The notes under the pieces were generated by a model. The model was not told the DNA's origin. It saw only the letters and a list, made by a program, of their open reading frames with translations, and did no database searches. A DNA stretch of 64,000 nt from a virus, in the IMG/VR virus record IMGVR_UViG_3300050120_000230, positions 150,325 to 214,324 of that record; one strand, 5' to 3'. This document shows, one piece after another, positions 3,168 to 32,445 of the stretch. The translations under genes and the position numbers were made by a program. How positions within the stretch are numbered: the stretch's first letter is position 1; every line of letters starts with the position of its first letter.

Positions 3168-3207
3168 ATTTATCGACGGCACATTTGGTTTGCGATAATT
3201 TGAAAAT

Positions 3208-3786
3208 GTGCACCATCCTTTCACTCTCGCGTCGGTCAAGAAGGGCTCCCTCAAACTTGAGGGCACCGGGCGCGTGTTTCCTATGCAGCTTCTTCCGGTC
3301 TTTGCGTCGGCAGAAGAAGCTCATCAGTGCATGGGGTTCCATTTTTCCATGTGGCTCGAAGCCAACCCCGACGTGACGGACTATCGCTTGGCGTTGGATA
3401 TGGAAGTTTGCGACTCGCCAATTACCGTGCATCGTCAAGCGCCGGTGTGGATTTTCTTCGGGAAACTGAAAGACAAAAATGCGTTCCAAAGATGGATTGC
3501 ACGTTACAGGGAGTGGTTCGGCGGAAACGATATCGACCGCGCCTATTTTCCAGTATTGCCGATCAGCGGCCGTCACACACTGACTTTTCTGACTATTCCT
3601 TCTGGGATGAAACTCGATCCTAGAATGATGGACATGACTTTCCCTGATGGCAGCGTCGAACGTTGGGCGTGGGTATTGAGTAATTGTCGCAACCCAGTCT
3701 ATGTGACCCCTAACGGGCTTGCATTCACGTCTGCGAAAGAAGCTCTCCATTTCAAACTGCGATGGTCCGAGGCCCAAAATGTCTGA
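3208..3786 (+). CDS. paralog-family protein (C-terminal ...RWAWVLSNCRN...AKEALHFKLRW)
   Basis: family C-terminal module present; N-terminal start uncertain. Confidence 0.5.
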   Translation: MHHPFTLASVKKGSLKLEGTGRVFPMQLLPVFASAEEAHQCMGFHFSMWLEANPDVTDYRLALDMEVCDSPITVHRQAPVWIFFGKLKDKNAFQRWIARYREWFGGNDIDRAYFPVLPISGRHTLTFLTIPSGMKLDPRMMDMTFPDGSVERWAWVLSNCRNPVYVTPNGLAFTSAKEALHFKLRWSEAQNV

Positions 3787-4207
3787 GAAACCCAACGACC
3801 CATGGACTACGGCAAGTGGCTCACGCATCAAAGCGTGGTTTGTGATGCGTCTCGATCTGCCTATGTCGCAGGGCAAGTTCGGTATCCAAATTGGGCACGG
3901 CACCGATTTCATTCACATGGTCGGCGCCCAGAATCCATTCTACGAAACGTGGCTTGATCCGCACGGCGGAAACCGCCGTAAGATTGCCCTACGCGCCAAG
4001 ACTCTCGCCGATCTCGAAGTCGTAAAATCTGAATGCGACAAGGCTGGCATGATTACGAAGCTCATCATGGATGCGGGTCTGACCGAGTTCGGCCAACCGA
4101 CCATCACCGGATTGGTGATTCTCCCGCACGATGACGGCACAATCCCGAGCGTTTTGAAGCGGGCTCAAGCATGGCGGCCGACCGATGGCACAGCCCCGAC
4201 CAGCTAA
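3779..4207 (+). CDS. Pth2-type peptidyl-tRNA hydrolase
   Basis: KAWFVMRLDLPMSQGKFGIQIGHG... resembles the PTH2 core (RTDLxMgkGKiaAQcsHA); size about 140 aa; start overlaps the upstream stop. Confidence 0.55.
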   Translation: MSEKPNDPWTTASGSRIKAWFVMRLDLPMSQGKFGIQIGHGTDFIHMVGAQNPFYETWLDPHGGNRRKIALRAKTLADLEVVKSECDKAGMITKLIMDAGLTEFGQPTITGLVILPHDDGTIPSVLKRAQAWRPTDGTAPTS

Positions 4208-4628
4208 CGGACCTCGCGGCTATACCGGTCCACCCGGCTGCGTTGGTCCACCGGGTGTCACACGTCCGTATGGCACCCATGTGACTTCCTTGCCGGGAGT
4301 CTCTCCGTATTTGATGGCCCAATTCAGAGATCAATTTTACCACATGCAACATCGCAAGGGACGTAACGACAATCGAATTTGGCTGCTTGTCAAACTCTTA
4401 AAATGGACAAAGGTCGATCTGCCCATCGAAACCATCAGTCTGGCCGGAGGCCAACGTGATTCTTCTACAGACATGGGTCTGGTGTTTGCCAATTGTGACA
4501 GGGGTGTCCAGAACATTAAAGATTGGTGCGATAGCCAGTGCCGAAAGCCGTGGCGTTATGAACCGTCCGGCACATTTCTTTTTCGTTCAATGAACGATGC
4601 AGCCATTTTCAAACTTAGGTGGTTCTGA
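4185..4628 (+). CDS. paralog-family protein (C-terminal ...IKDWCDSQCRKPWRY...NDAAIFKLRWF)
   Basis: family module at C-terminus. Confidence 0.5.
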   Translation: MAQPRPANGPRGYTGPPGCVGPPGVTRPYGTHVTSLPGVSPYLMAQFRDQFYHMQHRKGRNDNRIWLLVKLLKWTKVDLPIETISLAGGQRDSSTDMGLVFANCDRGVQNIKDWCDSQCRKPWRYEPSGTFLFRSMNDAAIFKLRWF

Positions 4629-4837
4629 TGCCCGAACCGGTCGTTGAATATTGCGTTGAGGAAGCTGACACTGACGGGAAGGGCACCGAGATCGGCTGGG
4701 GCGGGTGGAGCACTCACTCGACCGAAAAAGAGGCCGAAGACGCGATGTGGGCGATGCCCAAAACTGAAGGCCGCCTGCGCGTCGCTAGGGTGACCACTGA
4801 GACACTTTGTGTGCGAGACTGTCCCAGTGAGCGGTAA
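4619..4837 (+). CDS. small hypothetical protein
   Basis: short ORF coupled to upstream stop (TGATG). Confidence 0.3.
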   Translation: MVLMPEPVVEYCVEEADTDGKGTEIGWGGWSTHSTEKEAEDAMWAMPKTEGRLRVARVTTETLCVRDCPSER

Positions 4838-5144
4838 TTCTCCTGAGCCCCTCAGAGAGGCTCTGTGGGCCGTTTTGGAGGGCATCCATTGCCGGATACC
4901 CGACAATGATGGCGATGGCTCTGAAACATCTTTCGAGAACCTGCGCTGGATGGTGGATCGCTGCTTGTCCGACGAGACCATGCCGCTCGACAAGGTCAGT
5001 CGGTGGGTGGGCTTCATCCAAGGCGTTCTGGCAACCAAGGGCTTGCTCAGTGTCGCCGAAGAGCGAGATCGAACGAGGCCGATCTTTCACAAAGCCTATC
5101 GCGAAATGGGCATCACGCCCCCGGCAAGCACCAGCCGTGGTTGA
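4809..5144 (+). CDS. hypothetical protein
   Basis: GTG-initiated ORF with protein-like composition. Confidence 0.4.
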   Translation: MCETVPVSGNSPEPLREALWAVLEGIHCRIPDNDGDGSETSFENLRWMVDRCLSDETMPLDKVSRWVGFIQGVLATKGLLSVAEERDRTRPIFHKAYREMGITPPASTSRG

Positions 5145-5358
5145 AAGAGTCTCTGACGTATTTGATCGCGAGTGGCCCTATCAAATCACGTTCTATACTC
5201 CCATTCTGTCGGACGGATCGCTCTATGAGATCAAGAAATGGTGTGTCGATAATCTCAAGGGCGATTGGAGCTATTTCAGTCGCGGCAGTTTTTTCGAGGT
5301 GTTCGTCTTTGATGACCACACCGACGTGATTTTCTTCAAAATGAATTTCGAATGTTGA
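5137..5358 (+). CDS. paralog-family protein (..IKKWCVDNLKGDWSYF...HTDVIFFKMNF)
   Basis: ORF 4906..5358 has a junk-like N-terminus; an in-frame GTG at 5137 overlapping the upstream stop gives a 74-aa family member. Confidence 0.4.
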   Translation: MVERVSDVFDREWPYQITFYTPILSDGSLYEIKKWCVDNLKGDWSYFSRGSFFEVFVFDDHTDVIFFKMNFEC

Positions 5359-5606
5359 CCCGCGTCGTTCACTGCAAACGAGAGCCCTACGATGTCTACA
5401 TCGGGCGGGGATCGAAATGGGGCAACCCGTTCGTAATCGGCAAGGACGGAGATCGGCCAACCGTGATCGCAAAATATTGCGACTATATCGCCCAACGTCC
5501 CGACTTGCTGGCAGATGTCCATGAACTTCGTGGTAAGGTCATCGGCTGTTGGTGTGCCCCACAAGCGTGCCATGGCGATGTGCTCGCGGAACTGGCGGAT
5601 TCATGA
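5352..5606 (+). CDS. DUF4326-like small protein (GNPF...CWCAPxxCHGD motif)
   Basis: VYIGRGSKWGNPF and CWCAPQACHGDVL motifs typical of DUF4326-type phage proteins. Confidence 0.5.
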   Translation: MLTRVVHCKREPYDVYIGRGSKWGNPFVIGKDGDRPTVIAKYCDYIAQRPDLLADVHELRGKVIGCWCAPQACHGDVLAELADS

Positions 5607-5878: not shown

Positions 5879-5886
5879 ATAATTCC

Positions 5887-7616: not shown

Positions 7617-7673
7617 TATTCGTGGTGGGGATCGAACCCACGACCCAAGGCTCTACCGCTGAGCTACACGACC
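7617..7673 (-). ncRNA. anticodon-arm-less mini tRNA-like element (acceptor + D-arm + T-arm, 57 nt)
   Basis: GGTCGTG-TA-GCTCAGCGGTAGAGC-CTTGGGTC-GTGGG-TTCGATC-CCCAC-CACGAAT; only 8 nt between D and T arms. Confidence 0.4.
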
Positions 7674-8467
7674 TACACTACCACACTTTCACTCAGTTCG
7701 CGTGCACGCTCCCCGAGCTAAACCTAGATTGCGTGAACCTCTCAACGATAGAGCGGAAGGATCAGGCCGCTTCATTGCTTCCACGGCCCATACGATCCAA
7801 TCACCACGCAACCAAACCTTCGTGCCCATTCGGGCGAAATCTCCAACCACGCCCTCGCTCTAAGCGAACGACAACGGATCGGCGAGGTGTCATCGCTGTC
7901 TAGCCCACGATGGTCCCCTTCGGATCGCTCACGCTATATTTCAAGACGCAGCGCCGCAACTTTTTGCCCATTCAGGCGAATTGGTGGAGGGACTTCCCTC
8001 TCCAACGAAGCGGCTCGCGCGGGGCCATCTCCAAAGTCGGAGTGTGAAGTTGGGCCTACCCCCTAAGCAATGGCATTTCGGCCACTCAGGTTTATCCCAC
8101 TTTTCCAGCCTAGTCTCGGGTCTAGAAATCCCTACCTTCAGCTTCTCTCGACACTGAGGGCCAGACACTTCCTCCTGAACCCTCGCGAGGGTTAGAGAAT
8201 CTGCGCTGACACTTTTAGCTCGGAATGCTCACGCAATCCCGCCTCAGTAATTCGTGTTGCCTTCCCGAGATCAGAACGCTGGTAAACCGCCGGGCCAAAC
8301 CCTTTGGCTCTTCCAAGGACTTCTGGTTAGCTAATGCCGAACCAGCGCCCCGTTCTCAAGAACAACCTCAATCTACACCGCCCCCGAGAACGGTCAAGCA
8401 ATTTCTTTTGGTTGACCAAAAATCTTTTCGTGGGAGTATTCAATCTATAGTCAGCCGGGAGAACCAT

Positions 8468-8938
8468 GTGCAATACGAGACCCACATCTTCAGCAAGAAT
8501 GAGCCGTGGGCCACCGAATGGCACATCCTCTACTTGACAGCCGCCGACGCGGAGAAGGTGTTTCTCAGCACAAATGAATCCGTGAAAGGCTACCGTCGCA
8601 ACGGTGGCGAATGGGCGCGCGCCAGTCATGATAGCTATCGCTATCTCAGGCGTGAAGTTGATGAATGGGTCCGTGCCAATGCCGGACCCCAAGAAGGTGA
8701 AGTGTGGGAATGCGACCGCTACTACCACGCGGACGAGCCTCTCCCAGCATTGCCGCAACGCGCCGGTCGCCGAGCATGGCTGGATGCCTTCAAATGCTGG
8801 CCAGAAGTCTACGGAAACTACCATCATCACCAGTGGGCGGCCGGATCGCACCTCGACACCGAAAAGAAAGGGATCAGAGCTTTCATTCGGTTCAGAAGCG
8901 AGACGACCGCTGTGCTGTTCAGGACGCTGTTCCTGTAA
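8468..8938 (+). CDS. paralog-family protein (...HQWAAGSHLD...IRAFIRFRSETTAVLFRTLFL)
   Basis: ORF 8225..8938 trimmed to in-frame GTG preceded by GGGAGA; upstream part lies in the structured region. Confidence 0.45.
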   Translation: MQYETHIFSKNEPWATEWHILYLTAADAEKVFLSTNESVKGYRRNGGEWARASHDSYRYLRREVDEWVRANAGPQEGEVWECDRYYHADEPLPALPQRAGRRAWLDAFKCWPEVYGNYHHHQWAAGSHLDTEKKGIRAFIRFRSETTAVLFRTLFL

Positions 8939-8940
8939 AT

Positions 8941-9014
8941 TGGCAGGGGTGGAGAGAATCGAACTCTCGTCTTGGGTTTTGGAGACCCCTACTCTACCAT
9001 TGAGCTACACCCCT
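8941..9014 (-). tRNA. tRNA-Trp (anticodon CCA)
   Basis: manual cloverleaf: AGGGGTG/CACCCCT acceptor, loop CTCCAAA, T-arm GAGAG-TTCGATT-CTCTC, CCA encoded; A1-U72. Confidence 0.75.
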
Positions 9015-9094
9015 ATTAGATAACTTGGGATACCACCGGTTGCAAATCAGGATATATACGTAATACTTACGTATTTCCGGGGGCTATCACGACA

Positions 9095-9364
9095 ATGACT
9101 ACTCCATCTACGATCAACGGCGCCACTGTGACTATTGTCAGGATTGGCAAATCTCTCGTTTCCTTGCAGTCACAAAATCTCGTCACACAACCCGCAAGCG
9201 CCGGGCAGATGTCCTTCCAGATCAATTGCGATTCGAAGCTGCTGATCGCGAACTCGAAGATCACGATTTTCTCTTCGACGTTCGGTGCGAAGATCGACAA
9301 CGTCACCGTCCTCGCCGATCATTTCGGCGCGGGTAGTCACCAGATCACTGGCCACGTCATCTGA
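9095..9364 (+). CDS. small hypothetical protein
   Basis: 89-aa ORF between tRNA genes; weak RBS. Confidence 0.3.
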   Translation: MTTPSTINGATVTIVRIGKSLVSLQSQNLVTQPASAGQMSFQINCDSKLLIANSKITIFSSTFGAKIDNVTVLADHFGAGSHQITGHVI

Positions 9365-9368
9365 ATTG

Positions 9369-9458
9369 AGAATCAGGTGGGACTCGAACCCACGGGGACA
9401 AGCTTCGCTTGTTACGGGGGTAAAAACCCCGCCCTCTCGCCGCTGAGGTGACTGATCC
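9369..9458 (-). tRNA. atypical long tRNA-like gene (90 nt, long variable hairpin ACAAGC-GAA-GCTTGT, anticodon loop TTTTTAC reading TTT); identity uncertain
   Basis: acceptor GGATCAG/CTGATTC, T-arm GTGGG-TTCGAGT-CCCAC, anticodon stem CGGGG/CCCCG; three nt between acceptor and D stem. Confidence 0.45.
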
Positions 9459-9498
9459 ATTTATTGAACATTCGTAGAGATATCAATACTATTGGTTA

Positions 9499-10092
9499 AT
9501 GTTTTGTGAATTTTGTTCTGACTTGATTTCTTCTCGATATGGTTCTGGTCGTTTTTGTTCTTCCAAAAGTGCCAGAGGTTTCAGCACCAAAGCTAGGCGC
9601 GCAGAGATCAATTCCAAGGTCAGCAAGAAATTATCGAATAGACCGTCTGGTCGAACGCTCGATTGCGTGACCATTTCTTTTCTGGCTGACAAACGACGTG
9701 AAAAACTCATGGAACTGCCATGGGAATCAATTGGCCTATACGCCAAAAAATCTCGCGTTCTGGGTGAACAAAATCACCGGTGCAATGGATGCAACCTTGA
9801 TGAATGGCGGGGCCAGCCGTTGGTTTTGGAAATCGAACATAAAGATGGCAATAACCAAAACAACGCCCGAGAAAATCTCGAAGGCTTGTGTCCGAATTGC
9901 CATAGCCAAACGCCAACATGGCGTGGTCGTAACAAGGGTCGATCTAAATCAATCTCAGATCAAGAATTCATCGAACATCTGCAAGCTGCTAGCAGCATTC
10001 ATCGCGCGCTGTTGAGCTTAGGTCTCTCAGCGAAGGGAACGAATTATAACCGTGCGAGAACTCTCATCCAATCACATGGCATTTCTATGTGA
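9499..10092 (+). CDS. HNH endonuclease
   Basis: HNH signature ...CNGCNLDEW...EIEHKDGNNQNNARENLEGLCPNCH; stop abuts tRNA-Lys. Confidence 0.65.
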   Translation: MFCEFCSDLISSRYGSGRFCSSKSARGFSTKARRAEINSKVSKKLSNRPSGRTLDCVTISFLADKRREKLMELPWESIGLYAKKSRVLGEQNHRCNGCNLDEWRGQPLVLEIEHKDGNNQNNARENLEGLCPNCHSQTPTWRGRNKGRSKSISDQEFIEHLQAASSIHRALLSLGLSAKGTNYNRARTLIQSHGISM

Positions 10093-10168
10093 TGGTGAAC
10101 CCCCTCGGATTTGAACCGAGAATCTCCTCCTTAAAAGGGAGTTGCATTAACCGTTATGCTAGGGGTCC
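10093..10168 (-). tRNA. tRNA-Lys (anticodon TTT)
   Basis: GGACCCC acceptor, D GCAT/ATGC, loop CTTTTAA, T-arm CTCGG-TTCAAAT-CCGAG, CCA encoded. Confidence 0.75.
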
Positions 10169-10354
10169 GTTAGAAAGTAGCATTCAGAGGTGAATTCATC
10201 TCGGGATATTCTGTCGCGAGAACAGACCCTTCATATGTTCCCCAGCCAACGAAAGCCAGAACTAAAGCAATGATTGTGGTGCCGAGCGCGATTTTGAATG
10301 TCTTTTGCATAGCAACAATTTATCTCTCTGAGATGTTGCGATGCAATATATTTG

Positions 10355-10438
10355 AGGGCGCGGTGGGACTCGAACCCACGGTGTGCTTACGCAAAAAGAT
10401 TAAGAGTCTTCCCCCTTCGCCGCTCGGGACACGCGCCC
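10355..10438 (-). tRNA. atypical class-II-like tRNA (84 nt; Tyr/Ser-like D-loop GAGCGGCGAA, 15-nt variable arm) whose anticodon loop reads CTCTTAA (CTT); identity uncertain
   Basis: acceptor GGGCGCG/CGCGCCC, T-arm GTGGG-TTCGAGT-CCCAC; anticodon stem AAGA/TCTT. Confidence 0.45.
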
Positions 10439-10442
10439 ATGT

Positions 10443-10517
10443 TGGTGGATCGGGAGAGATTCGAACTCTCGACCTTGGGCTTAAGAGGCCCCTGCACTAC
10501 CGCTGTGCTACCAATCC
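10443..10517 (-). tRNA. tRNA-Lys (anticodon CTT)
   Basis: GGATTGG acceptor, loop CTCTTAA, T-arm GAGAG-TTCGAAT-CTCTC, CCA encoded. Confidence 0.7.
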
Positions 10518-10521
10518 ATTG

Positions 10522-10609
10522 TAGTCCTGCTTGGATTCGAACCAAGATCACGCCCCGATCTGGGACTACGGATTATAAATCCGACGCTCTGCCGTTGAGC
10601 TACAGGACC
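10522..10609 (-). tRNA. atypical long tRNA (88 nt, about 21-nt variable region) with anticodon loop TTTATAA (TAT); Ile-UAU-like or other, uncertain
   Basis: GGTCCTG acceptor, D GCTC-AACGGCA-GAGC, T-arm CTTGG-TTCGAAT-CCAAG. Confidence 0.45.
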
Positions 10610-10667
10610 AAAGGGTCTGCTGTAGCAGCGATATTCGTTTACTCATTTGGTCCTCCTCTTTTTGCTG

Positions 10668-10751
10668 TGCGCTCGGCTGGGCTCGAACCAGCAAGACCTT
10701 CCGGCCGCTCCGTTTTAAGTGGAGTGTGGCTACCAGTTTCACCACGAGCGC
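10668..10751 (-). tRNA. tRNA-Leu (anticodon TAA)
   Basis: class II: 3-bp D stem, loop CTTAAAA, 15-nt variable arm, T-arm GCTGG-TTCGAGC-CCAGC. Confidence 0.7.
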
Positions 10752-10756
10752 ATGAT

Positions 10757-10838
10757 TGGTGCCCCTCCTCGGATTCGAACCGAGATGCTTTCGCGCCAGA
10801 TTTTGAATCTGGTGTGTCTACCGTTCCACCAGAGGGGC
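10757..10838 (-). tRNA. tRNA-Leu (anticodon CAA)
   Basis: loop TTCAAAA, stem CCAGA/TCTGG, 11-nt variable arm (GCGAAAGC), CCA encoded. Confidence 0.75.
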
Positions 10839-10881
10839 ATAGAAACCTGAAGATCACATGGCGTGAACCTCAAGTCCATAT

Positions 10882-10963
10882 TGGTGCGGATGGAGGGAAT
10901 CGAACCCCCACGCTTTCGCAACAGATTCTAAATCTGCCGTGGCTACCGTTACACCACATCCGC
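10882..10963 (-). tRNA. tRNA-Leu (anticodon TAG)
   Basis: loop TTTAGAA, variable TGCGAAAGCGT, T-arm GGGGG-TTCGATT-CCCTC, CCA. Confidence 0.75.
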
Positions 10964-10971
10964 ATTGTAGT

Positions 10972-11058
10972 TGGTGCGAATAGCAGGACTCGAACCTGCA
11001 CGGCCTTTCGGCCACTGACTTCTGAAGCCAGCGCGTCTACCTATTCCGCCATACTCGC
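10972..11058 (-). tRNA. tRNA-Leu (anticodon CAG)
   Basis: D GCGG-AATAGGTAGA-CGCG as in bacterial Leu, loop TTCAGAA, 15-nt variable arm, CCA. Confidence 0.8.
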
Positions 11059-11066
11059 ATTGTATT

Positions 11067-11148
11067 TGGTGCCCAGAACAGGACTCGAACCTGCACGCCG
11101 AAGCAACATCCTCTCAGAATGCCGTGTCTACCGTTTCACCATCTGGGC
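11067..11148 (-). tRNA. tRNA-Leu (anticodon GAG)
   Basis: loop CTGAGAG, variable TGCTTCGGCGT, CCA. Confidence 0.75.
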
Positions 11149-11156
11149 ATTGTAGT

Positions 11157-11232
11157 TGGCACAACCGACTGGGCTCGAACCAGTGGCCTCATCCTTCGGA
11201 GGGATGCGCTCTTCCAACTGAGCTACGGCTGT
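11157..11232 (-). tRNA. tRNA-Arg (anticodon CCG)
   Basis: loop CTCCGAA, stem CATCC/GGATG, A1-U72, CCA. Confidence 0.7.
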
Positions 11233-11244
11233 AAATGATGTGCT

Positions 11245-11321
11245 TGGCAGAGACGACAGGGATCGAACCTGTGACCTCCTGATTCGTAGTCAGGCGCTCG
11301 TTCCGGCTGAGCTACGCCTCT
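11245..11321 (-). tRNA. tRNA-Arg (anticodon ACG)
   Basis: loop CTACGAA, stem CCTGA/TCAGG, T-arm ACAGG-TTCGATC-CCTGT, CCA. Confidence 0.75.
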
Positions 11322-11346
11322 GCAAAGCACATCATCGAAGTGTGTT

Positions 11347-11422
11347 TGGCTGGAACGGAGGGGATCGAACCCACGACCTTCAATTCCGCAAACTGACGCT
11401 CTTCCAACTGAGCTACGTCCCA
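11347..11422 (-). tRNA. tRNA-Arg (anticodon GCG)
   Basis: loop TTGCGGA, stem TCAGT/ATTGA, CCA; T-stem has one U-U mismatch. Confidence 0.65.
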
Positions 11423-16567: not shown

Positions 16568-16642
16568 AGTCTCTTAGCTCAGCGGTAGAGCAGCGTCTTG
16601 ATAAGGCGAAGGTCACTGGTTCAATCCCAGTAGGGACTACCA
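16568..16642 (+). tRNA. tRNA-Ile (anticodon GAT)
   Basis: loop TTGATAA, T-arm ACTGG-TTCAATC-CCAGT, CCA; A1-U72. Confidence 0.75.
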
Positions 16643-16657
16643 AATCGCAGGACTTAC

Positions 16658-16732
16658 GGGCGAATAACTCAGCGGTAGAGTGCCTCTTTCACACGGAGGA
16701 AGCCGGGGGTTCGATCCCCTCTTCGCCCACCA
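16658..16732 (+). tRNA. tRNA-Val (anticodon CAC)
   Basis: GGGCGAA acceptor, loop TTCACAC, T-arm GGGGG-TTCGATC-CCCTC, CCA. Confidence 0.7.
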
Positions 16733-16836
16733 CTACTCGATGAGTGACGTAGCTCATCAAGGTCTTTGACATCGTTGATAGCGTGAAATAACGGCCGCTC
16801 CCGTGATCGGGGGCGGCCGACTAAGAAGAGTTTTGC

Positions 16837-16909
16837 TGAGGATTAGTTCAGTTGGTAGAACGCCACACTCTGAATGTGGATGTCCGAGGTTCGAGTCCTT
16901 GATCCTCAG
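16837..16909 (+). tRNA. tRNA-Gln (anticodon CTG)
   Basis: U1-A72 acceptor TGAGGAT/ATCCTCA, D GTTC/GAAC, loop CTCTGAA; no CCA encoded; flanked by inverted repeat gaagagttttgc/gcaaaactcttc. Confidence 0.7.
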
Positions 16910-16966
16910 CAAAACTCTTCTAGTTTTTTCACAAGCGTCCGTCGCAAGACGGCGCCTGTGAACTAA

Positions 16967-17051
16967 TGGGGAATGGTGTAATGGTAACATCCCTGACTTT
17001 GAATCAGGAGACGAGGAGTTTATGTAGGTTCGAGCCCTACTTCCCCAGCCA
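16967..17051 (+). tRNA. tRNA-Gln (anticodon TTG) with unusually long (15-nt) variable region
   Basis: TGGGGAA/TTCCCCA acceptor, loop CTTTGAA, T-arm GTAGG-TTCGAGC-CCTAC, CCA; variable AGACGAGGAGTTTAT. Confidence 0.55.
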
Positions 17052-17073
17052 TATTTTACGCGATGTGTTTTGG

Positions 17074-17151
17074 TGCGGGATGGTAGCAGTCTGGTAGCTC
17101 GTTAGCCTCATAAGCTAAAGGTCAGCGGTTCAAATCCGCTTCCCGCACCCA
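17074..17151 (+). tRNA. tRNA-Met (anticodon CAT; elongator-type or Ile2-lysidine)
   Basis: fMet-like body (AGTCTGGTA D-loop, CTCATAA loop, T-arm AGCGG-TTCAAAT-CCGCT) but U1-A72 paired; CCA encoded. Confidence 0.7.
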
Positions 17152-17171
17152 AACACATCGCGAACCTTTGA

Positions 17172-17249
17172 CGCGGGAAGGACAAGACAGTTAGTCACTA
17201 GCCTCATAAGCTAGACATCTGGCAGATGCGAGCACTGCTCCCGCACCCA
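17172..17249 (+). pseudogene. degenerate duplicate of the tRNA-Met gene (tRNA pseudogene)
   Basis: shares the TAGC-CTCATAA-GCTA anticodon arm and TCCCGCACCCAAAC 3-prime end with the upstream tRNA-Met but lacks D and T arms; C1xA72 mismatch. Confidence 0.5.
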
Positions 17250-17324
17250 AACTTGGCACGGTGATGAACCGGTAAGTCCACAGAGTTATTGACTTGGTGC
17301 TACGAAAATCCGTAGCTGCAAGGT

Positions 17325-17657
17325 ATGAATGATCCACCCAAATTCGTCCGAGCCAGCCGCGAATATCGAGAGCATCTCATCGCTTTCGTTCAGCGGGCAG
17401 TTTGGGCGAGAGGACAGCCGGGTTTCGAGTTCGATGTGATGGGACGAACGTTCCTGATCGCGACCGAGACTGACTACCTTCCGGGTTGGTCAGCCCGGCC
17501 TCTAACTCAACCGGACTTGATCTTCTTCAAAATGTTGTCGCGAGAACGCGATGACAACCACTGGGGCGCCTATTGGCGTCGCGGCAAGGGGATGAAGGTT
17601 TACGGAAACAGCACCGTATTCGAGCGGGACATGCTTTTCCTCAAGTTCGCAGAATAA
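17325..17657 (+). CDS. paralog-family protein (two copies of the motif: DLIFFKMLS and ERDMLFLKFAE)
   Basis: 110-aa ORF between tRNA arrays; family motif at C-terminus. Confidence 0.5.
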   Translation: MNDPPKFVRASREYREHLIAFVQRAVWARGQPGFEFDVMGRTFLIATETDYLPGWSARPLTQPDLIFFKMLSRERDDNHWGAYWRRGKGMKVYGNSTVFERDMLFLKFAE

Positions 17658-17822
17658 GCGAAATATCGTACAACACGAAAAGCGATAAATCGTGCAAGGA
17701 ATCATCGGGATCAGCGTCGGCAGTTCCTCCCCTCGGGGTGTGAAAACGGACCCCCGGTGACTTAGGCTAGAGGGTTGTAGGTGACCTGTATTTGACTGGG
17801 AACCTTCGTCCATGTGTTTTGT

Positions 17823-17899
17823 CAGGGTGTAGCTCAGTCTGGTAGAGTGGCGTCCTCGGATGGCGAGGGTCGCAGGTTCAAATCCTGCCACCCTGACCA
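17823..17899 (+). tRNA. tRNA-Pro (anticodon CGG)
   Basis: C1-G72 acceptor CAGGGTG/CACCCTG typical of Pro, loop CTCGGAT, CCA; flanked by inverted repeat catgtgtttt/aaacacatg. Confidence 0.7.
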
Positions 17900-18071
17900 A
17901 ACACATGGTTCACCAAATGGATGTGCTTTCCGAGAGGCATGTTGTGCATCGTCAAGAACAATCACCGTCCGTAGAGGGACGCCCGAGCGGGTTGCGGAGA
18001 TTGTAGGAGACGATGTGCCAAGCGCGCGAACGGCTGCAAATCGGCATGTCTCGCGGTAAGCACATCCATGA

Positions 18072-18147
18072 TGGATAGTAGCTCAGTTGGTAGAGCTTTC
18101 GGTTGTTACCCGAATGGTCGCAGGTTCGAGCCCTGCCTATCCAGCCA
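18072..18147 (+). tRNA. tRNA-Asn (anticodon GTT)
   Basis: loop TTGTTAC, stem TTCGG/CCGAA, T-arm GCAGG-TTCGAGC-CCTGC, CCA. Confidence 0.7.
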
Positions 18148-18166
18148 AAATGACCTTCGGGTCTGA

Positions 18167-18241
18167 TTGGACGTAGCACAATGGTAGTGCAACTCCCTGT
18201 TAAGGAGAAGGTTGTAGGTTCGAGTCCTACCGTCCGAGCCA
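18167..18241 (+). tRNA. tRNA-Asn (anticodon GTT), second copy
   Basis: loop CTGTTAA, D GCAC/GTGC, T-arm GTAGG-TTCGAGT-CCTAC, CCA. Confidence 0.65.
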
Positions 18242-18331
18242 TTTCTGGGTGGGCTGCAACCCCCAACTTCATCCATCGGGTGAAGAGGTGAGACGCACAA
18301 AGCGCGTCTCTGACAAAGCGCAGCACATCAT

Positions 18332-18407
18332 GGGGCCATAGCTCAGTTGGTAGAGCGATTCCTCGGCAGGGAATAGGTCGCCGGTTCGACTCCGGCTGGC
18401 TCCACCA
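18332..18407 (+). tRNA. tRNA-Ala (anticodon GGC)
   Basis: G3-U70 identity pair (GGGGCCA/TGGCTCC), loop TCGGCAG (C at position 33), CCA. Confidence 0.7.
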
Positions 18408-18605
18408 TTAAAGAAAGCCCCGCTGTTTCCAGCGAGGCTCCCTAGACCGAATCCACCACCGCACCGAAGCGCGGACATCAAAGGTGGACATCGTCACAAG
18501 GGATGTCAAGACCCGCTGTCCAAGGCTTGGACGGCACTCGCTGTCCAAGGCTTGGACAGCACTCCGCACGGTGATGAGCCGATAAGTCGGCAGATTTTGC
18601 CCACC

Positions 18606-18640
18606 AAAAAAGGCCCCGGCGAACCGGGGCCTTGATGGCA
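18606..18640 (-). terminator. rho-independent terminator for the minus-strand gene ending at 18661
   Basis: ggccccggcgaaccggggcc hairpin followed (minus strand) by TTTTTT. Confidence 0.6.
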
Positions 18641-18660
18641 CTGCACCGAAGTGCGGATGC

Positions 18661-18858
18661 TTAGGCGGTTTCGGCGTCCGAGCGGGTCGCGTATTCGGCC
18701 TTCAGGGATTCGAGGATCGACTGCTTGGCGGTGGCGTCGGTGACCGACGTTTCGCCGAGTTCGCGTTCGACCTTGGAAATGGCGTTCTTGATGTGCGGGG
18801 TTGCCATCTTCGACACCGGGGTTTCCGTGGTGCCGGACTTCCAGACTGCTTCAGCCAC
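18661..18858 (-). CDS. small hypothetical protein (65 aa)
   Basis: GTG start with AAGGAGG 7 nt upstream; terminator immediately downstream. Confidence 0.55.
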   Translation of the reverse strand: MAEAVWKSGTTETPVSKMATPHIKNAISKVERELGETSVTDATAKQSILESLKAEYATRSDAETA

Positions 18859-18980
18859 AAGGGCCTCCTTGGTAGGTGGGTGGGAGTGCTAACCGGTTTG
18901 GTTAACGAAAACCATATATCCACCCCTGCGGCGTCATGTCAACAGCACAAAATCGTGCACTGCTCGTTGAGGGAAAACAC

Positions 18981-19054
18981 GGGGTAATAGCTCAATGGTC
19001 GAGCACCGGCTTCGCAAGTCGGGGATCAGGGTTCGATTCCCTGTTACTCCACCA
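18981..19054 (+). tRNA. tRNA-Ala (anticodon CGC)
   Basis: G3-U70 (GGGGTAA/TTACTCC), loop TTCGCAA, T-arm CAGGG-TTCGATT-CCCTG, CCA. Confidence 0.7.
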
Positions 19055-19079
19055 AACATAAATAGTTTCAACTACATAT

Positions 19080-19155
19080 GCTGTCTTAGCTCAGTTGGTA
19101 GAGCGCCGTATTGGTAATGCGGAGGTGGTGGGTTCGATCCCCGCAGTCAGCACCA
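19080..19155 (+). tRNA. tRNA-Thr (anticodon GGT)
   Basis: loop TTGGTAA, stem CCGTA/TGCGG, CCA; one acceptor mismatch. Confidence 0.65.
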
Positions 19156-19158
19156 TTT

Positions 19159-19235
19159 CAGGGTATAGCGCAGCATGGTAGCGCGTCACGTCGGGAACGT
19201 GAAGGTCGCAGGTTCAAATCCTGCTATCCTGACCA
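19159..19235 (+). tRNA. tRNA-Pro (anticodon GGG)
   Basis: C1-G72 acceptor CAGGGTA/TATCCTG, loop TCGGGAA (C33), T-arm GCAGG-TTCAAAT-CCTGC, CCA. Confidence 0.65.
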
Positions 19236-19241
19236 ATTAGG

Positions 19242-19547
19242 TCAATCCATACAGAACGGATTGGCGATGTTCGTCAGCGGCACAGTGTCCAAGATGATCG
19301 GGTTTTTGAAGAACTCGGACGTAAATTGATGCGAACCATTCGGGTTCATATATCGACGAGTTGCGGCCGTTTGGGCTCCCTTGACGGTTTTGAATACGCC
19401 GCTGAACCACATGATTTTATCAGCATCGCGTGGTGAGGTAACGCCGTACTGCCAAACGGTCATACCTTTCGGGTGTTCGATCCCTCTGGCATAGAACTTC
19501 TGCTCAATGGGAGCGTCATTCTCCGTGATGATTTCTCTCATACGCAT
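19242..19547 (-). CDS. hypothetical protein
   Basis: ORF 19242..19658 trimmed to an internal Met because its 5-prime end would overlap tRNA-Pro(TGG). Confidence 0.35.
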   Translation of the reverse strand: MRMREIITENDAPIEQKFYARGIEHPKGMTVWQYGVTSPRDADKIMWFSGVFKTVKGAQTAATRRYMNPNGSHQFTSEFFKNPIILDTVPLTNIANPFCMD

Positions 19548-19580
19548 ATGAATATTTAGGCCGCATGGCCAAACAGACAT

Positions 19581-19657
19581 CGGGGTGTAGCTCAGCTTGA
19601 TAGAGCATCCGGTTTGGGACCGGAGGGTCGGAGGTTTGAGTCCTCTCGCCCCGACCA
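19581..19657 (+). tRNA. tRNA-Pro (anticodon TGG)
   Basis: C1-G72 acceptor CGGGGTG/CGCCCCG, loop TTTGGGA, T-loop TTTGAGT, CCA. Confidence 0.7.
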
Positions 19658-19686
19658 ATTCAGAGACCTTCCCAAAGGGTCTCTAC

Positions 19687-19763
19687 GGTAATGTAGCTCA
19701 GTCAGGTAGAGCAGCGGGCTCATAACTCGCGTGTCGCTGGTTCGATCCCAGCCATTACCACCA
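19687..19763 (+). tRNA. tRNA-Met or tRNA-Ile2 (anticodon CAT)
   Basis: GGTAATG/CATTACC acceptor, loop CTCATAA, T-arm GCTGG-TTCGATC-CCAGC, CCA. Confidence 0.7.
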
Positions 19764-19764
19764 C

Positions 19765-19839
19765 GGACGATTAACTCAGCGGTAGAGTGCCTCTATGACA
19801 TGGAGGAAGCCACTGGTTCGATCCCAGTATCGTCCACCA
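19765..19839 (+). tRNA. tRNA-Val (anticodon GAC)
   Basis: one nt after the preceding tRNA; loop ATGACAT, T-arm ACTGG-TTCGATC-CCAGT, CCA. Confidence 0.7.
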
Positions 19840-19901
19840 ATTTACTTGACGAAACGCCCGTCCATGAGATCATATGTTGATCTTGCAAAGGGAGGGCATC
19901 C

Positions 19902-20177
19902 ATGACGACTGTGAAACTCTCCGAAGCGGAACACAACGCTCTCTCACTTCTGGTTCGCTCGGGCGGCTCGATCCTCACGTCGGCCATTCCCGATAAGAAC
20001 GAGAAGGACGTGTTTGACAACGTCGAGGCAGGCATCAAGGTCTACGTGAAACTTGAGACCCGTGGTCTGGTTGTCGTGACCGAGGAAGAGCCGTTCGAAC
20101 TTGAAGACGGCACCGAGTTCCAGTTCACGAACGAAGTCTACATCACCGACGAAGGTCGGCACGCTATCAACCGCTAA
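19902..20177 (+). CDS. hypothetical protein (91 aa)
   Basis: strong RBS AAGGGAGGG; acidic, protein-like composition. Confidence 0.55.
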   Translation: MTTVKLSEAEHNALSLLVRSGGSILTSAIPDKNEKDVFDNVEAGIKVYVKLETRGLVVVTEEEPFELEDGTEFQFTNEVYITDEGRHAINR

Positions 20178-20240
20178 CAGGCCACATATGGCCTATTAGG
20201 CGCCGGAAACGGTTCTAATAGGCCAACTATGGCCTCTTAT

Positions 20241-20315
20241 GCTTGGGTAGCTCAGGGGTAGAGCAGTGGGCTGAAAATCCGCGTGTCGTTGGTTCGATTC
20301 CAACTCCAAGCACCA
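20241..20315 (+). tRNA. tRNA-Phe (anticodon GAA)
   Basis: loop CTGAAAA, D GCTC-AGGGGTA-GAGC, T-arm GTTGG-TTCGATT-CCAAC, CCA. Confidence 0.75.
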
Positions 20316-20485
20316 TTTTGGTTATTTTGACCGCAAGGTAGATCATACCGCCCGGCCAAAGCAAACCGCCCCACAAAACTTGGCACAGAAATGTGCACAA
20401 GTCGAAGTGGTTGGATTTGATCTCTATGACCTGAAGAAGGCCCCAGAAGATCAATCCAATCAAAGAGTAAACAATCCATGGGCTC

Positions 20486-21616
20486 ATGCCCATATTTAGA
20501 GAGGAACGGTCCCTTGGAGTTTCACGGCTAAGCCCAGAGCGCCTTAATCGGTATCTGGCACTGCAAGATTTGACCGACGCATCGTCGGGCGAACACGCAA
20601 TCAACCTCGTGCTGGACAAGCTGGTAACGGCAATTGAGCAATGGTCGGGCCTCAAGGCAGACATCGTTCGGTCCACTCCTATCGTTTCCGTTCGGGACAA
20701 CTACGACCGGCTCTACTATGAGCCGGACGCGGTCGCACGCTCTGCGCGCTATTCCCACTACGTTGACGATGAGCACATTCTTCGCACCCACACGACGGCG
20801 GCCATTCCCGGCCTGCTGACGGAGACCACGGCCGACCGGCTGATGGTTCTACCGGGTCTTGTCTATCGCCGCGATGTGATGGATCGGATGCATGTGGGAG
20901 AACCGCACCAAGTCGATCTCTGGGTCGCTAGGCGGTCAAGGCTCCGTCGTGATGATCTGTTGAAGATGATCGGCGCGGTTCTCAACGCGATCCTGCCCGG
21001 CTGCGAATACCGCTGCAACGAGACAATCCATCCATACACAGTAAATGGCTTGGAGGTCGAGGTTCGTGTGGACGACCGGTGGATAGAGGTGCTCGAATGT
21101 GGGGAAATCCATCCGTGGCTTTTGAACGACAACGGCTTGCCTAGTCAGGAGTGGTCGGGCTTGGCGATGGGGCTGGGCCTAGACCGCCTTGTAATGCTCC
21201 TGAAGGGCATGGACGACATTCGGCTGCTTCGCAGCACGGATGCTCGTATTGCCCGCCAGATGGCTTCCCTGAGCCCCTACGAGGCTGTTTCGAACCAACC
21301 TATGACCAAGCGGGATATGTCGCTCACGGTGAGTGATCCTGACATCGAATTGATCGGAGATCGCATCCGGGTGGCGCTCGGTGATCGGGCTGACTGGTTG
21401 GAAGAGATCGTGGTCGTTTCGGCATCGAGTTGGGATGAAGTCCCGGCCGTGGCGAGGGAGCGTCTTGGGATGGCGCCTGAGCACACGAACCTGTTGCTGC
21501 GGCTCATCATGCGCTCACCGTCCGAGAGCATTCCGAAAGAGATCGCCAACGAAATCTACGACATAGTCTATGGCGAGCTTCACGAAGGATCGGCGGGGTA
21601 TCAGCGTGTATCATAA
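20486..21616 (+). CDS. pheS: phenylalanyl-tRNA synthetase alpha-subunit (PheS)-like class II aaRS catalytic core
   Basis: motif 2 VLPGLVYRRDVMDRMHVGEPHQVDLWV (cf. [27 protein letters not shown]) and motif 3 SGLAMGLGLDRLVMLLKGMDDIRLL (cf. [25 protein letters not shown]); ILRTHTTAAIPGLL matches LLRTQTSGVQIRTM; lies directly after tRNA-Phe. Confidence 0.75.
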   Translation: MPIFREERSLGVSRLSPERLNRYLALQDLTDASSGEHAINLVLDKLVTAIEQWSGLKADIVRSTPIVSVRDNYDRLYYEPDAVARSARYSHYVDDEHILRTHTTAAIPGLLTETTADRLMVLPGLVYRRDVMDRMHVGEPHQVDLWVARRSRLRRDDLLKMIGAVLNAILPGCEYRCNETIHPYTVNGLEVEVRVDDRWIEVLECGEIHPWLLNDNGLPSQEWSGLAMGLGLDRLVMLLKGMDDIRLLRSTDARIARQMASLSPYEAVSNQPMTKRDMSLTVSDPDIELIGDRIRVALGDRADWLEEIVVVSASSWDEVPAVARERLGMAPEHTNLLLRLIMRSPSESIPKEIANEIYDIVYGELHEGSAGYQRVS

Positions 21617-21766
21617 ACAAGACGGGAAGGCCCTTAATGCATCGTTTATGATGCACTACGGTCGATTTCACAGTCTAGTGCATCAGTTTTGATGCATTAC
21701 GCAATTCGCCAAAAATGACGAGTTATGAACAAAAATAGCCCTAACTCGTCAAAATTGGCGAATTAT

Positions 21767-21841
21767 GTCGATGTAGCTTAGTGGCTAAAGCATCCGGTTG
21801 AAACCCGGAGATCGGCGGTTCGAACCCGCCCATCGGCACCA
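21767..21841 (+). tRNA. tRNA-Phe (anticodon GAA), second copy
   Basis: loop TTGAAAC, stem TCCGG/CCGGA, T-arm GGCGG-TTCGAAC-CCGCC, CCA. Confidence 0.65.
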
Positions 21842-23045: not shown

Positions 23046-23495
23046 GTGCGGATGGAAGTTTGTCTCATTCGCCCCGACCATTTCGACGCCATGGATGACA
23101 TCCTGAATGGTAATGGGATGCCGCTCGCTCGTGCGTTCCCGCCGACCTATTTCGTGGCGCTGGATAGAGGGGAAGTCATCGGTGGTGGGGGATACGCCAA
23201 GATCAACCCAAGTACGGGCTGGCTGGCGTCTGTGGCCGTCGCCAAGCACCGCAAGCGCACCGGGGTGGGTTCGGCTGTCGTTGCCGCCAATCTACGCTAT
23301 GCGGCCGAACGTGGAATGGGGTCGATGTGGCTGGAAACGTATTTCTGGAACAGCCGGTTCTATGAGAGCCTTGGTTTCGAAGGCATCGCACCCGCCCTCG
23401 TCCCGGCTCGCATCAAGGAGTGGAGAACCAAGAAGCACTGCCGCTTCATGGCGAACACTCTATTGCCAGCGCATTTTGAAATGAAGCGCCTCTGA
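23046..23495 (+). CDS. GNAT-family N-acetyltransferase
   Basis: acetyl-CoA binding region VAKHRKRTGVGSAVVAANLRYAAERG and C-terminal YESLGFEGI. Confidence 0.6.
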   Translation: MRMEVCLIRPDHFDAMDDILNGNGMPLARAFPPTYFVALDRGEVIGGGGYAKINPSTGWLASVAVAKHRKRTGVGSAVVAANLRYAAERGMGSMWLETYFWNSRFYESLGFEGIAPALVPARIKEWRTKKHCRFMANTLLPAHFEMKRL

Positions 23496-32395: not shown

Positions 32396-32445
32396 GGGTA
32401 GCCCCCAAAAGAGTGCCCTCGCCGAAGCGAGGGCTGACCGGTGCC

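What the first reader, a model, noticed from the sequence alone, without database searches (positions are those of the whole stretch)
3779..4207. Phage-encoded Pth2-type peptidyl-tRNA hydrolase
A Pth2-like protein (the archaeal/eukaryotic-type family, not bacterial Pth) in a phage with a huge tRNA complement and a PheS homolog points to an extended translation-maintenance toolkit. It could also be an anti-defence measure against host tRNA/peptidyl-tRNA-targeting toxins.
Basis: partly seen in the sequence, partly recalled or inferred. Interest (0 to 1): 0.55.

Follow-up and report, generated by a model that had tools for sequence, protein, structure and literature searches.

The report
Jumbo-phage Pth2 peptidyl-tRNA hydrolase gene
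The gene is a real, conserved and probably active archaeal-type (Pth2) peptidyl-tRNA hydrolase carried by a very large T4-like phage next to its tRNA gene arrays, but enzymes of this kind are already well documented in jumbo phages, so it is an ordinary new member of a known class.

Summary
Window 3779..4207 (+) is a 142-aa ORF with a GAGG ribosome-binding site. It matches Pfam PTH2 (E 6.9e-15, 55.7 bits against a cut-off of 23) and solved archaeal Pth2 enzymes. An AlphaFold model (pLDDT 86) superposes on every solved Pth2 (TM 0.82-0.86). The residues aligned with the S. solfataricus catalytic positions (K33, D98, T102) are invariant in 24 homologs, and dN/dS is 0.07-0.28. The gene sits in a conserved T4-like block (gp32, UvsX, ferritin, Pth2, DUF4326, tRNA array) on phage contigs of 200-570 kb. 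The window also holds 31 tRNA genes and a PheS-like gene.

Across IMG/VR, 41 of 80 Pth2 loci have a tRNA within 6 kb, against 5 of 49 cellular Pth2 loci. This supports a role in translation maintenance, through recycling of tRNA from dropped-off peptidyl-tRNA.

Nothing supports the anti-defence idea: there are no PADLOC hits and the neighbours are uncharacterised.

Phage Pth2 is already described (RaK2 in 2013, the 2021 jumbo-phage survey, mycobacteriophage tRNA arrays, Atu_ph07-like phages) and is annotated in GenBank phages. Verdict: new member of a known kind, low interest. Side observations may be more interesting, notably tRNAs with long variable arms and Lys, Ile or Gln anticodons.

The parts
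3779..4207 (+). Pth2-type peptidyl-tRNA hydrolase CDS (142 aa). The core Pth2 domain is residues ~17-127. K33, D98 and T102 align with S. solfataricus K18, D86 and T90. The clade has its own conserved N-terminal motif (DPW..GSR) and C-terminal tail (LKRAQAWRPTD).
3769..3772 (+). GAGG Shine-Dalgarno-like motif 6 nt upstream of the ATG.
   Evidence: Read directly from the sequence
3208..3786 (+). Upstream ORF (192 aa, no family hit) whose stop overlaps the Pth2 start by 8 nt. It is conserved in the same position in L003, L006 and L060 but absent in L008 and L009, so it is not an obligatory partner.
4628..4837 (+). Small ORF (69 aa, no family hit). A homolog is fused in frame to the C-terminus of Pth2 in a related phage lineage (P0004, 213 aa; three independently assembled contigs).
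5352..5606 (+). DUF4326 gene, conserved about 1.5 kb downstream of Pth2 in relatives. It marks the end of the syntenic block before the tRNA array.
7617..11422 (-). First tRNA array. ARAGORN finds 14 tRNAs (Trp, Lys x4, Ile, Leu x5, Arg x3) at 8941-11422. Rfam alone adds a 57-nt tRNA hit at 7617-7673. The nearest tRNA lies 3.4-4.7 kb from Pth2.
16568..21841 (+). Second tRNA array (17 tRNAs). It encloses the PheS-like gene (20486..21616), which is flanked by two tRNA-Phe(GAA) genes.

Best explanation
The gene encodes an active Pth2-family peptidyl-tRNA hydrolase of a very large T4-like phage, distantly related to Sinorhizobium phage Phosso and Agrobacterium phage Atu_ph07. During infection it probably cleaves the ester bond of peptidyl-tRNAs (N-blocked aminoacyl-tRNAs) that fall off ribosomes. 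This would return free tRNA, both host tRNA and the phage's own large set, to the translation pool and supplement the host's single Pth1.

Shown here: family membership, fold, conservation of the residues that align with the archaeal active site, purifying selection, conserved synteny in a phage lineage, and association with tRNA arrays.

Inferred: the enzymatic activity itself, the in vivo substrate, and the benefit to the phage.
For: Identity:
- Pfam PTH2 E 6.9e-15, above the gathering score.
- Solved archaeal Pth2 enzymes are the top seven PDB hits.
- The AF2 model has pLDDT 86.3 and pTM 0.82, with four core strands and four helices. Its first 14 Foldseek PDB hits are all Pth2 or Bit1; target-normalised TM is 0.82-0.86 for 13 of them, and the outlier is an NMR model.
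- The alignment to 1XTY places window K33, D98 and T102 on S. solfataricus K18, D86 and T90. All three are invariant in 24 homologs of 54-83% identity.
- dN/dS is 0.07-0.28 with near-saturated synonymous sites.

Phage context:
- The identical protein is on a 415-kb contig, and orthologs are on contigs of 202-570 kb.
- The gene order is conserved: gp32, UvsX/RecA, DUF4376, ferritin, Pth2, DUF4326, tRNA array.
- The window carries a UvsW-like helicase and PHROG proteins whose best matches are jumbo phages Phosso and Atu_ph07.

Link to tRNA:
- The window has 31 tRNAs and a PheS-like gene.
- 41 of 80 IMG/VR Pth2 loci have a tRNA within 6 kb, 31 of 80 have three or more, and 24 of 80 have one within 1 kb.
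- The figures for cellular Pth2 loci are 5 of 49 and 0 of 49.

Background:
- Archaeal and yeast Pth2 complement E. coli lacking Pth, and lambda growth is sensitive to host Pth activity (rap/bar). Both points are my own knowledge (Rosas-Sandoval 2002; Fromant 2003; Garcia-Villegas 1991, the last cited in PMC12542629).
Against: - No activity was measured for this or, to my knowledge, any phage Pth2.
- The NCBIfam archaeal Pth2 equivalog models match only below their cut-offs (58.7 against 126 bits, and 48 against 82). The protein is therefore a divergent subfamily rather than a close ortholog of the characterised enzymes.
- The host already has an essential Pth1, so the need for a second hydrolase is assumed, not shown.
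- In this window the tRNA array nearest to Pth2 is on the opposite strand and 3.4-4.7 kb away, so the two are not co-transcribed.
- The tRNA-proximity comparison sets viral against cellular loci. It does not compare Pth2 with a random phage gene, and it is not corrected for relatedness among the loci.
Confidence: 0.7

Rival explanations
1. Counter-defence enzyme. The phage Pth2 exists mainly to undo damage from host toxins that target tRNA. It could hydrolyse N-acetyl-aminoacyl-tRNAs made by GNAT toxins of the TacT/AtaT/ItaT type. It could also free peptidyl-tRNA fragments left on stalled ribosomes after anticodon-nuclease cleavage, which is the ribosome-rescue idea proposed for jumbo-phage PTH2 in PMC7824862.
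For: - Bacterial Pth reverses TacT acetylation of aminoacyl-tRNA (PMC9241777), so the chemistry is plausible.
- Phage tRNA sets are known to counter tRNA-targeting defences such as PARIS and retrons (PMC11559606), and Pth2 travels with tRNA arrays.
- The window holds duplicate tRNA-Lys genes with unusual shapes. tRNA-Lys is a common nuclease target (own knowledge).
Against: - Pth2 and its nine neighbours gave no PADLOC hit.
- The neighbours have no recognisable RNA-repair or anti-toxin function.
- No paper found here reports an anti-defence phenotype for a phage Pth2.
- The gene lies in a conserved replication/recombination-side block, not in a variable accessory island.
- This role would be an extra use of the same hydrolase activity, so it is not exclusive of the best explanation.
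Confidence: 0.15
2. Host take-over tool. Unlike bacterial Pth1, archaeal Pth2 accepts E. coli formyl-Met-tRNAfMet (own knowledge, Fromant et al. 2003). A phage Pth2 could therefore deacylate the host initiator, or other host tRNAs, to lower host translation while phage tRNAs take over.
For: - The window encodes two tRNA-Met(CAU) genes and a near-complete set of elongator tRNAs.
- The Pth2 is of the non-bacterial type, so it may escape the substrate rules of Pth1 (which shows no Pth1 match).
Against: - Purely speculative.
- Archaeal and yeast Pth2 complement E. coli pth mutants and do not kill the cells (own knowledge).
- Nothing in the sequence distinguishes host from phage tRNA recognition.
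- Phage mRNAs need the same initiator tRNA.
Confidence: 0.05
3. The ORF is a non-enzymatic or decaying Pth2-fold relic: a binding protein, or a gene on its way out.
For: The score is below the NCBIfam equivalog cut-offs. The family annotation in PHROGs is 'unknown function'.
Against: - The active-site-aligned K, D and T residues are invariant across 24 homologs.
- dN/dS is 0.07-0.28.
- The length is intact and the position is conserved in contigs from many samples.
- The Pth2 fold is predicted with confidence.
Confidence: 0.04

Closest known systems
Archaeal Pth2 (A. fulgidus AF2095, PDB 1RZW/3ERJ; S. solfataricus 1XTY; P. horikoshii 1WN2; M. jannaschii 2ZV3) and human PTRH2/Bit1 (1Q7S)
   Same: Same Pfam family (PF01981) and the same compact alpha/beta fold (TM 0.82-0.86, rmsd 1.9-2.8 A). 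The GK...H, DAG.T and basic W...G..K motifs are shared, including the residues aligned with Sso K18, D86 and T90.
   Different: - Identity is only 23-33%.
- The protein scores below the NCBIfam equivalog cut-offs.
- It has a conserved 17-residue N-terminal extension (DPW..GSR) and a conserved C-terminal tail (AWRPTD) that the archaeal enzymes lack.
- It has an invariant GNRRK where the archaeal enzymes have EGQKK.
- It is encoded by a phage of bacteria, whose host already has Pth1.
Phage PTH2 proteins: PHROG 1866; Klebsiella phage RaK2 ORF188; Sinorhizobium phages Phosso gp55 and the phiM12 group; mycobacteriophage 'peptidyl tRNA hydrolase' (Baka, Pound, Phabba; cluster C tRNA arrays)
   Same: - Same family, carried by large phages, and often beside tRNA genes (PMC3622015, PMC7824862, PMC5966550, PMC11242549).
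- Phosso is also among the nearest isolates by another window protein (37% identity). Its Pth2 likewise lies among tRNA genes.
   Different: - Identity to any isolate phage Pth2 is only 29-36%.
- The window protein belongs to a small, so far uncultured clade: 24 clusters at 90% identity, and 2 representatives at E<=1e-30 among 1.84 billion.
- That clade has its own synteny.
Bacterial Pth1 (PF01195, E. coli Pth)
   Same: Same presumed reaction (EC 3.1.1.29) and the same cellular problem: recycling tRNA from peptidyl-tRNA drop-off.
   Different: The fold and catalytic residues are unrelated (His20, Asp93 and Asn10 in E. coli; PMC4929431). The Pfam scan to E<=10 found no Pth1 match.

Membership tests
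PTH2 (Pfam PF01981) | Profile match above the curated gathering score over most of the domain | tested here: met
   55.7 bits against a cut-off of 23, E 6.9e-15, profile positions 2-110 of 115. A profile of 24 homologs hits seven solved Pth2 sequences at E 4e-19 to 1e-8.
PTH2 (Pfam PF01981) | Compact alpha/beta fold of four strands and four helices, as described for Pth2 in PMC11202043 | tested here: met
   The AF2 model has pLDDT 86.3, with elements E16-24, H31-47, H55-59, E68-73, H76-88, E93-98, E108-118 and H124-127. The top 14 Foldseek PDB hits are all Pth2 or Bit1, with TMt 0.82-0.86 for 13 of them. This is a predicted structure, not a solved one.
PTH2 (Pfam PF01981) | Active-site Lys, Asp and Thr (S. 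solfataricus K18, D86, T90; their roles are from my own knowledge of Fromant et al. 2005, a paper not held in the library) | tested here: met
   The alignment to 1XTY puts K33, D98 and T102 at those positions. All three are invariant in 24 homologs.
PTH2 (Pfam PF01981) | Hydrolysis of N-blocked aminoacyl-tRNA, or complementation of a pth mutant | not testable with these tools
   Needs an enzyme assay or a genetic complementation experiment.
Archaeal Pth2 equivalog (NCBIfam NF003314 / TIGR00283) | Score above the equivalog cut-off | tested here: not met
   58.7 bits against 126, and 48 bits against 82. The protein is homologous but outside the curated archaeal ortholog group.
Phage PTH2 group (PHROG 1866) | Profile match over the full length, encoded on a phage genome | tested here: met
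   E 2.7e-18 over profile positions 6-124 of 126. For phage context. 51 GenBank phage records and at least 105 IMG/VR stretches carry homologs.
Bacterial Pth1 (PF01195) | Profile match to the Pth1 family | tested here: not met
   The Pfam scan listed only PTH2, even at E<=10.
Known anti-phage defence or counter-defence proteins (PADLOC-DB) | Profile match to a defence-system component | tested here: not met
   No hit for Pth2 or nine neighbouring proteins at E<=0.01. PADLOC models defence proteins rather than anti-defence proteins, so this is weak negative evidence.

The most novel reading that the evidence does not exclude
Phage Pth2 genes and tRNA arrays may form one mobile counter-defence module. 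The tRNAs, including the long-variable-arm Lys, Ile and Gln variants seen here, would replace or evade host tRNAs hit by nucleases or acetylating toxins. Pth2, possibly with the small protein fused to it in one lineage, would clear the resulting blocked or broken peptidyl- and acetyl-aminoacyl-tRNAs that host Pth1 handles poorly.
Probability: 0.1. Interest if true: 0.6.

Novelty: new member of a known kind. Interest (0 to 1): 0.2.

Why it matters
As it stands, this adds one more lineage to the list of big phages that carry an archaeal-type peptidyl-tRNA hydrolase. The lineage is an uncultured clade of T4-like phages on contigs of 200-570 kb.

The modest added value is quantitative. About half of the viral Pth2 loci sampled sit within 6 kb of tRNA genes, against about a tenth of cellular ones. 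This strengthens the view that the enzyme is part of a phage translation package.

No phage Pth2 appears to have been tested biochemically or genetically. The open question is why a phage needs a second, non-bacterial hydrolase, and this locus does not make that question easier to test than isolates such as RaK2, Phosso or the mycobacteriophages already do.

Tried and rejected
- **Defence link.** A PADLOC scan of Pth2 and nine neighbours gave no hits.
- **Functions of neighbours.** Pfam and PHROG scans of flanking ORFs found only DUF4326 and PHROGs of unknown function.
- **GNAT as a tRNA-acetylating toxin partner.** The GNAT at 23046..23495 has no PDB match to TacT or AtaT. Its only hit is a weak one to puromycin N-acetyltransferase.
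- **Operon signals.** Promoter-like and terminator-like sites in 1-9000 are no more frequent than in shuffles.
- **Upstream ORF 3208..3786 as an obligatory partner.** It is conserved in some relatives but missing in L008 and L009, and only three database homologs were found, too few for a useful structure prediction.
- **Structure of the Pth2 fusion protein.** Alignment A2 placed the short proteins against the Pth2 domain rather than the tail, so I did not submit it.
- **Multi-repeat 'hits' P0028 and P0042.** P0028 is an Ig-like repeat protein matched through a short WLD-like motif, so it is spurious. P0042 has the same multi-stretch pattern but was not inspected.
- **Literature support for Pth2 catalytic residues and fMet-tRNA specificity.** The papers are not held. 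Those points rest on my own knowledge and are marked as such.
- **Close DNA relatives.** A megablast of the first 20 kb against GenBank phages matched only tRNA genes.

Full report
**The observation**

An ORF runs on the + strand from ATG 3779 to TAA 4205-4207 and encodes 142 aa. GAGG lies 6 nt upstream of the ATG. The start overlaps the TGA of the upstream ORF (3208..3786) by 8 nt, a typical arrangement for translational coupling. A codon-usage score trained on the window's long ORFs favours this frame over the overlapping ORFs on the minus strand. Gene callers at JGI and Logan produced the same 142-aa product.

**Identity**

Sequence evidence:
- The protein matches Pfam PTH2 (PF01981) with E 6.9e-15 and 55.7 bits against a gathering score of 23. 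The match covers positions 2-110 of the 115-position profile, and no other Pfam family appears even at E<=10.
- It matches PHROG 1866, annotated 'unknown function', at E 2.7e-18.
- The NCBIfam archaeal Pth2 equivalog models are hit only below their cut-offs: 58.7 against 126 bits, and 48 against 82. The protein is therefore a divergent homolog, not a close ortholog of the archaeal enzymes.
- Among solved structures the top seven hits are all Pth2 enzymes (A. fulgidus, P. horikoshii, T. acidophilum, S. solfataricus, M. jannaschii, one further entry, and human Bit1). The best is E 2.4e-14 with the single sequence and 4.2e-19 with a profile of 24 homologs.

Structure evidence:
- An AlphaFold2 model built on that alignment has mean pLDDT 86.3 and pTM 0.82.
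- It shows the four-strand, four-helix layout described for Pth2 (PMC11202043).
- Its 14 best Foldseek matches in the PDB are all Pth2 or Bit1. Target-normalised TM is 0.82-0.86 and rmsd 1.9-2.8 A for 13 of them; the exception is the NMR model of AF2095.

**Catalytic residues and selection**

Counting along the HMMER alignment to S. solfataricus Pth2 (1XTY), window K33, D98 and T102 fall on Sso K18, D86 and T90. I recall these as the residues identified by mutagenesis (Fromant et al. 2005). That paper is not in the held library, so the point rests on my own knowledge.

All three residues are invariant in 24 homologs of 54-83% identity, as are H40 and the DAGLTEF and GNRRK motifs.

Among five orthologs, synonymous sites are near saturation (pS 0.64-0.83) while pN is 0.18-0.34. 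This gives dN/dS of 0.07-0.28 where it can be computed. The gene is under purifying selection as a protein in this frame.

**Where it lives**

The identical protein is recorded on a 415,409-bp JGI contig. Orthologs of 56-72% identity are on contigs of 201,652, 322,753, 568,002 and 569,661 bp.

The surrounding gene order is conserved across these contigs:
1. gp32-like
2. UvsX/RecA
3. several unknown genes
4. DUF4376
5. ferritin, on the opposite strand
6. unknown genes
7. Pth2
8. small unknown genes
9. DUF4326
10. tRNA array

The window also holds a UvsW-like helicase, a virion-structural PHROG and a phrog_2087 protein. The best tblastn matches of that last protein in GenBank are Sinorhizobium phage Phosso (469 kb, 37%) and Agrobacterium phage Atu_ph07 (490 kb, 38%), followed by T4-like Aeromonas phages. 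Megablast of the first 20 kb finds only tRNA matches, so there is no close sequenced isolate. This is a T4-like jumbo or mega phage of an uncultured clade.

**Context with tRNA**

ARAGORN finds 31 tRNA genes in the window: 14 on the minus strand at 8941-11422 and 17 on the plus strand at 16568-21841. Rfam confirms 30 of them and adds a 57-nt hit at 7617-7673. A PheS-like class II core gene (20486..21616; PF01409 E 1.2e-34; best PDB hits are PheRS alpha chains) lies between two tRNA-Phe genes.

In every related locus a tRNA array begins about 2-5 kb downstream of Pth2.

I asked whether this pattern is general:
- Of 80 IMG/VR loci with a Pth2 homolog, 41 have at least one tRNA within 6 kb, 31 have three or more, and 24 have one within 1 kb. 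Several Pth2 genes are embedded in arrays of 18-39 tRNAs.
- Of 49 bacterial and archaeal genome loci with a Pth2 homolog, 5 have one tRNA within 6 kb and none has three.
- Fisher's exact test gives p = 1.4e-6 and 2.5e-8.

Two caveats apply. The loci are not phylogenetically independent, and the control is cellular Pth2 loci rather than random phage genes. The same linkage was noted earlier for cluster C mycobacteriophages (PMC5966550), and it is visible in Phosso.

**Mechanism**

The best-supported reading is the plain one. The protein is an active Pth2 that hydrolyses the ester bond of peptidyl-tRNA released prematurely from ribosomes. This frees tRNA for re-charging during the heavy translation load of a very large phage that brings its own tRNA pool.

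Shown here are membership, fold, active-site conservation, selection and the tRNA linkage. Inferred are the activity, the substrates and the benefit to the phage.

Support from established knowledge, which is my own unless cited:
- Archaeal and yeast Pth2 complement E. coli lacking Pth.
- Lambda growth depends on host Pth capacity (Garcia-Villegas 1991, cited in PMC12542629).

**Rival explanations**

- **Counter-defence.** The role would be removal of N-acetyl-aminoacyl-tRNA made by GNAT toxins, which bacterial Pth can do (PMC9241777). Alternatively it would be rescue after tRNA cleavage, as suggested for jumbo-phage PTH2 in PMC7824862. This is chemically plausible and not exclusive of the main reading. 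Nothing here supports it specifically. There are no PADLOC hits, no RNA-repair or antitoxin neighbours, and no published phenotype was found.
- **Host take-over through hydrolysis of fMet-tRNAfMet.** This is conceivable because archaeal Pth2 accepts that substrate (own knowledge), but it is pure speculation.
- **An inactive relic.** This is contradicted by the invariant active-site residues and the low dN/dS.

**Comparison with what is known**

Phage-encoded PTH2 is established:
- RaK2 ORF188 was annotated as Pth2 in 2013, with the same remark about its archaeal/eukaryotic affinity (PMC3622015).
- Atu_ph07-related Sinorhizobium jumbo phages are reported to encode peptidyl-tRNA hydrolases (PMC11242549).
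- 51 GenBank phage records give tblastn hits, many already labelled peptidyl-tRNA hydrolase.

The window protein is only 29-36% identical to any of these. It belongs to a small clade: 24 clusters at 90% identity, and two 50%-identity representatives at E<=1e-30 among 1.84 billion. It is a new member of a known kind.

**Side observations**

- In one related lineage the Pth2 is fused in frame to a homolog of the window's small ORF 4628..4837 (47% identity over 58 aa, E 1e-17). The same 213-aa ORF occurs in three independently assembled contigs.
- Several tRNAs of 85-91 nt fold as cloverleaves with a base-paired long variable arm yet carry Lys (UUU, CUU), Ile (UAU) or Gln (UUG) anticodons. Each lies in the same array as a normal-length tRNA-Lys or tRNA-Gln with the same anticodon (the UAU tRNA has no normal-length twin), and the long forms recur in relatives.
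- Small ORFs around Pth2 share a C-terminal '...F.F....DA..FKLRW' module.

**Verdict**

Novelty is low, and I score interest at 0.2.

Noticed in passing
window 9368-9458 (-), 10354-10438 (-), 10521-10609 (-), 16967-17051 (+); also L003 15778-15871, 16453-16539, 15292-15377 and L009 13568-13659, 16517-16785: These tRNAs are 85-94 nt long. They fold as cloverleaves with a base-paired long variable arm (class II shape) but carry Lys(UUU), Lys(CUU), Ile(UAU), Gln(UUG) or, in a relative, Trp(CCA) anticodons. The long Lys and Gln tRNAs each have a normal 74-76-nt twin with the same anticodon in the same array, adjacent for Lys(CUU) and Gln(UUG); the Ile(UAU) tRNA has no such twin. In bacteria long variable arms normally mark only Leu, Ser, Tyr and Sec tRNAs (own knowledge). 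These could therefore be identity-switched (allo-tRNA-like) tRNAs or nuclease-evading tRNAs. Rfam misses the 91-nt one at gathering score.
   Followed up: partly
window 4628-4837 (+); L140/L141/L142 6001-6642: The 69-aa ORF two genes downstream of Pth2 has a homolog fused in frame to the C-terminus of Pth2 (P0004, 213 aa). The fusion occurs in three independently assembled contigs of a related phage. This hints at a functional link. The small protein has no Pfam or PHROG hit.
   Followed up: partly
window 3208-3786, 4344-4628, 5137-5358, 540-974 (all +): Several small ORFs around Pth2 share a C-terminal module of about 40 aa ending in a motif like 'F.F....DA..FKLRW'. Pairwise blastp gives E 8e-5 to 5e-4 in a tiny database for three of them; ORF 540-974 was picked up only by a motif search. 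None has a Pfam hit. This may be a lineage-specific paralogous family.
   Followed up: partly
window 20241-21841 (+): A stand-alone PheS-like class II catalytic core (376 aa, PF01409 E 1.2e-34) is flanked on both sides by tRNA-Phe(GAA) genes. No PheT-like partner was looked for.
   Followed up: partly
window 23046-23495 (+): A GNAT acetyltransferase (PF00583 E 9.7e-14) lies 1.2 kb past the tRNA region. It is not TacT/AtaT-like by PDB sequence search; the only hit is a weak one to puromycin N-acetyltransferase.
   Followed up: partly
window 5271-5606: DUF4326 (5352..5606 +, E 5.5e-29; phrog_464) is conserved downstream of Pth2 in relatives. An automated minus-strand gene call at 5271..5573 on the Logan contig conflicts with it and is probably wrong.
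   Followed up: yes
window 31550-33162 (-): An adjacent pair of membrane proteins, SPFH/Band 7 (E 1.7e-15) and Bax inhibitor-1 (E 2.7e-48), sits in a phage genome.
   Followed up: no
window 7617-7673 (-): Rfam reports a 57-nt match to the full tRNA model (37.3 bits, gathering score 29) that ARAGORN does not report. It may be a truncated or armless tRNA-like element at the edge of the array.
   Followed up: no
window 9499-10092 (+): An ORF inside the minus-strand tRNA array has a weak HNH endonuclease hit (PF13392, E 0.0023, below cut-off). This recalls the HNH genes reported within mycobacteriophage tRNA arrays (PMC5966550).
   Followed up: no
window 13876-14967 (+): A protein with collagen triple-helix repeats (PF01391 E 2.5e-12), possibly a fibre or decoration protein.
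   Followed up: no
L140 11979-12642: In the relative that carries the Pth2 fusion, a large ORF with an ART-PolyVal (ADP-ribosyltransferase) domain lies 5 kb downstream.
   Followed up: no
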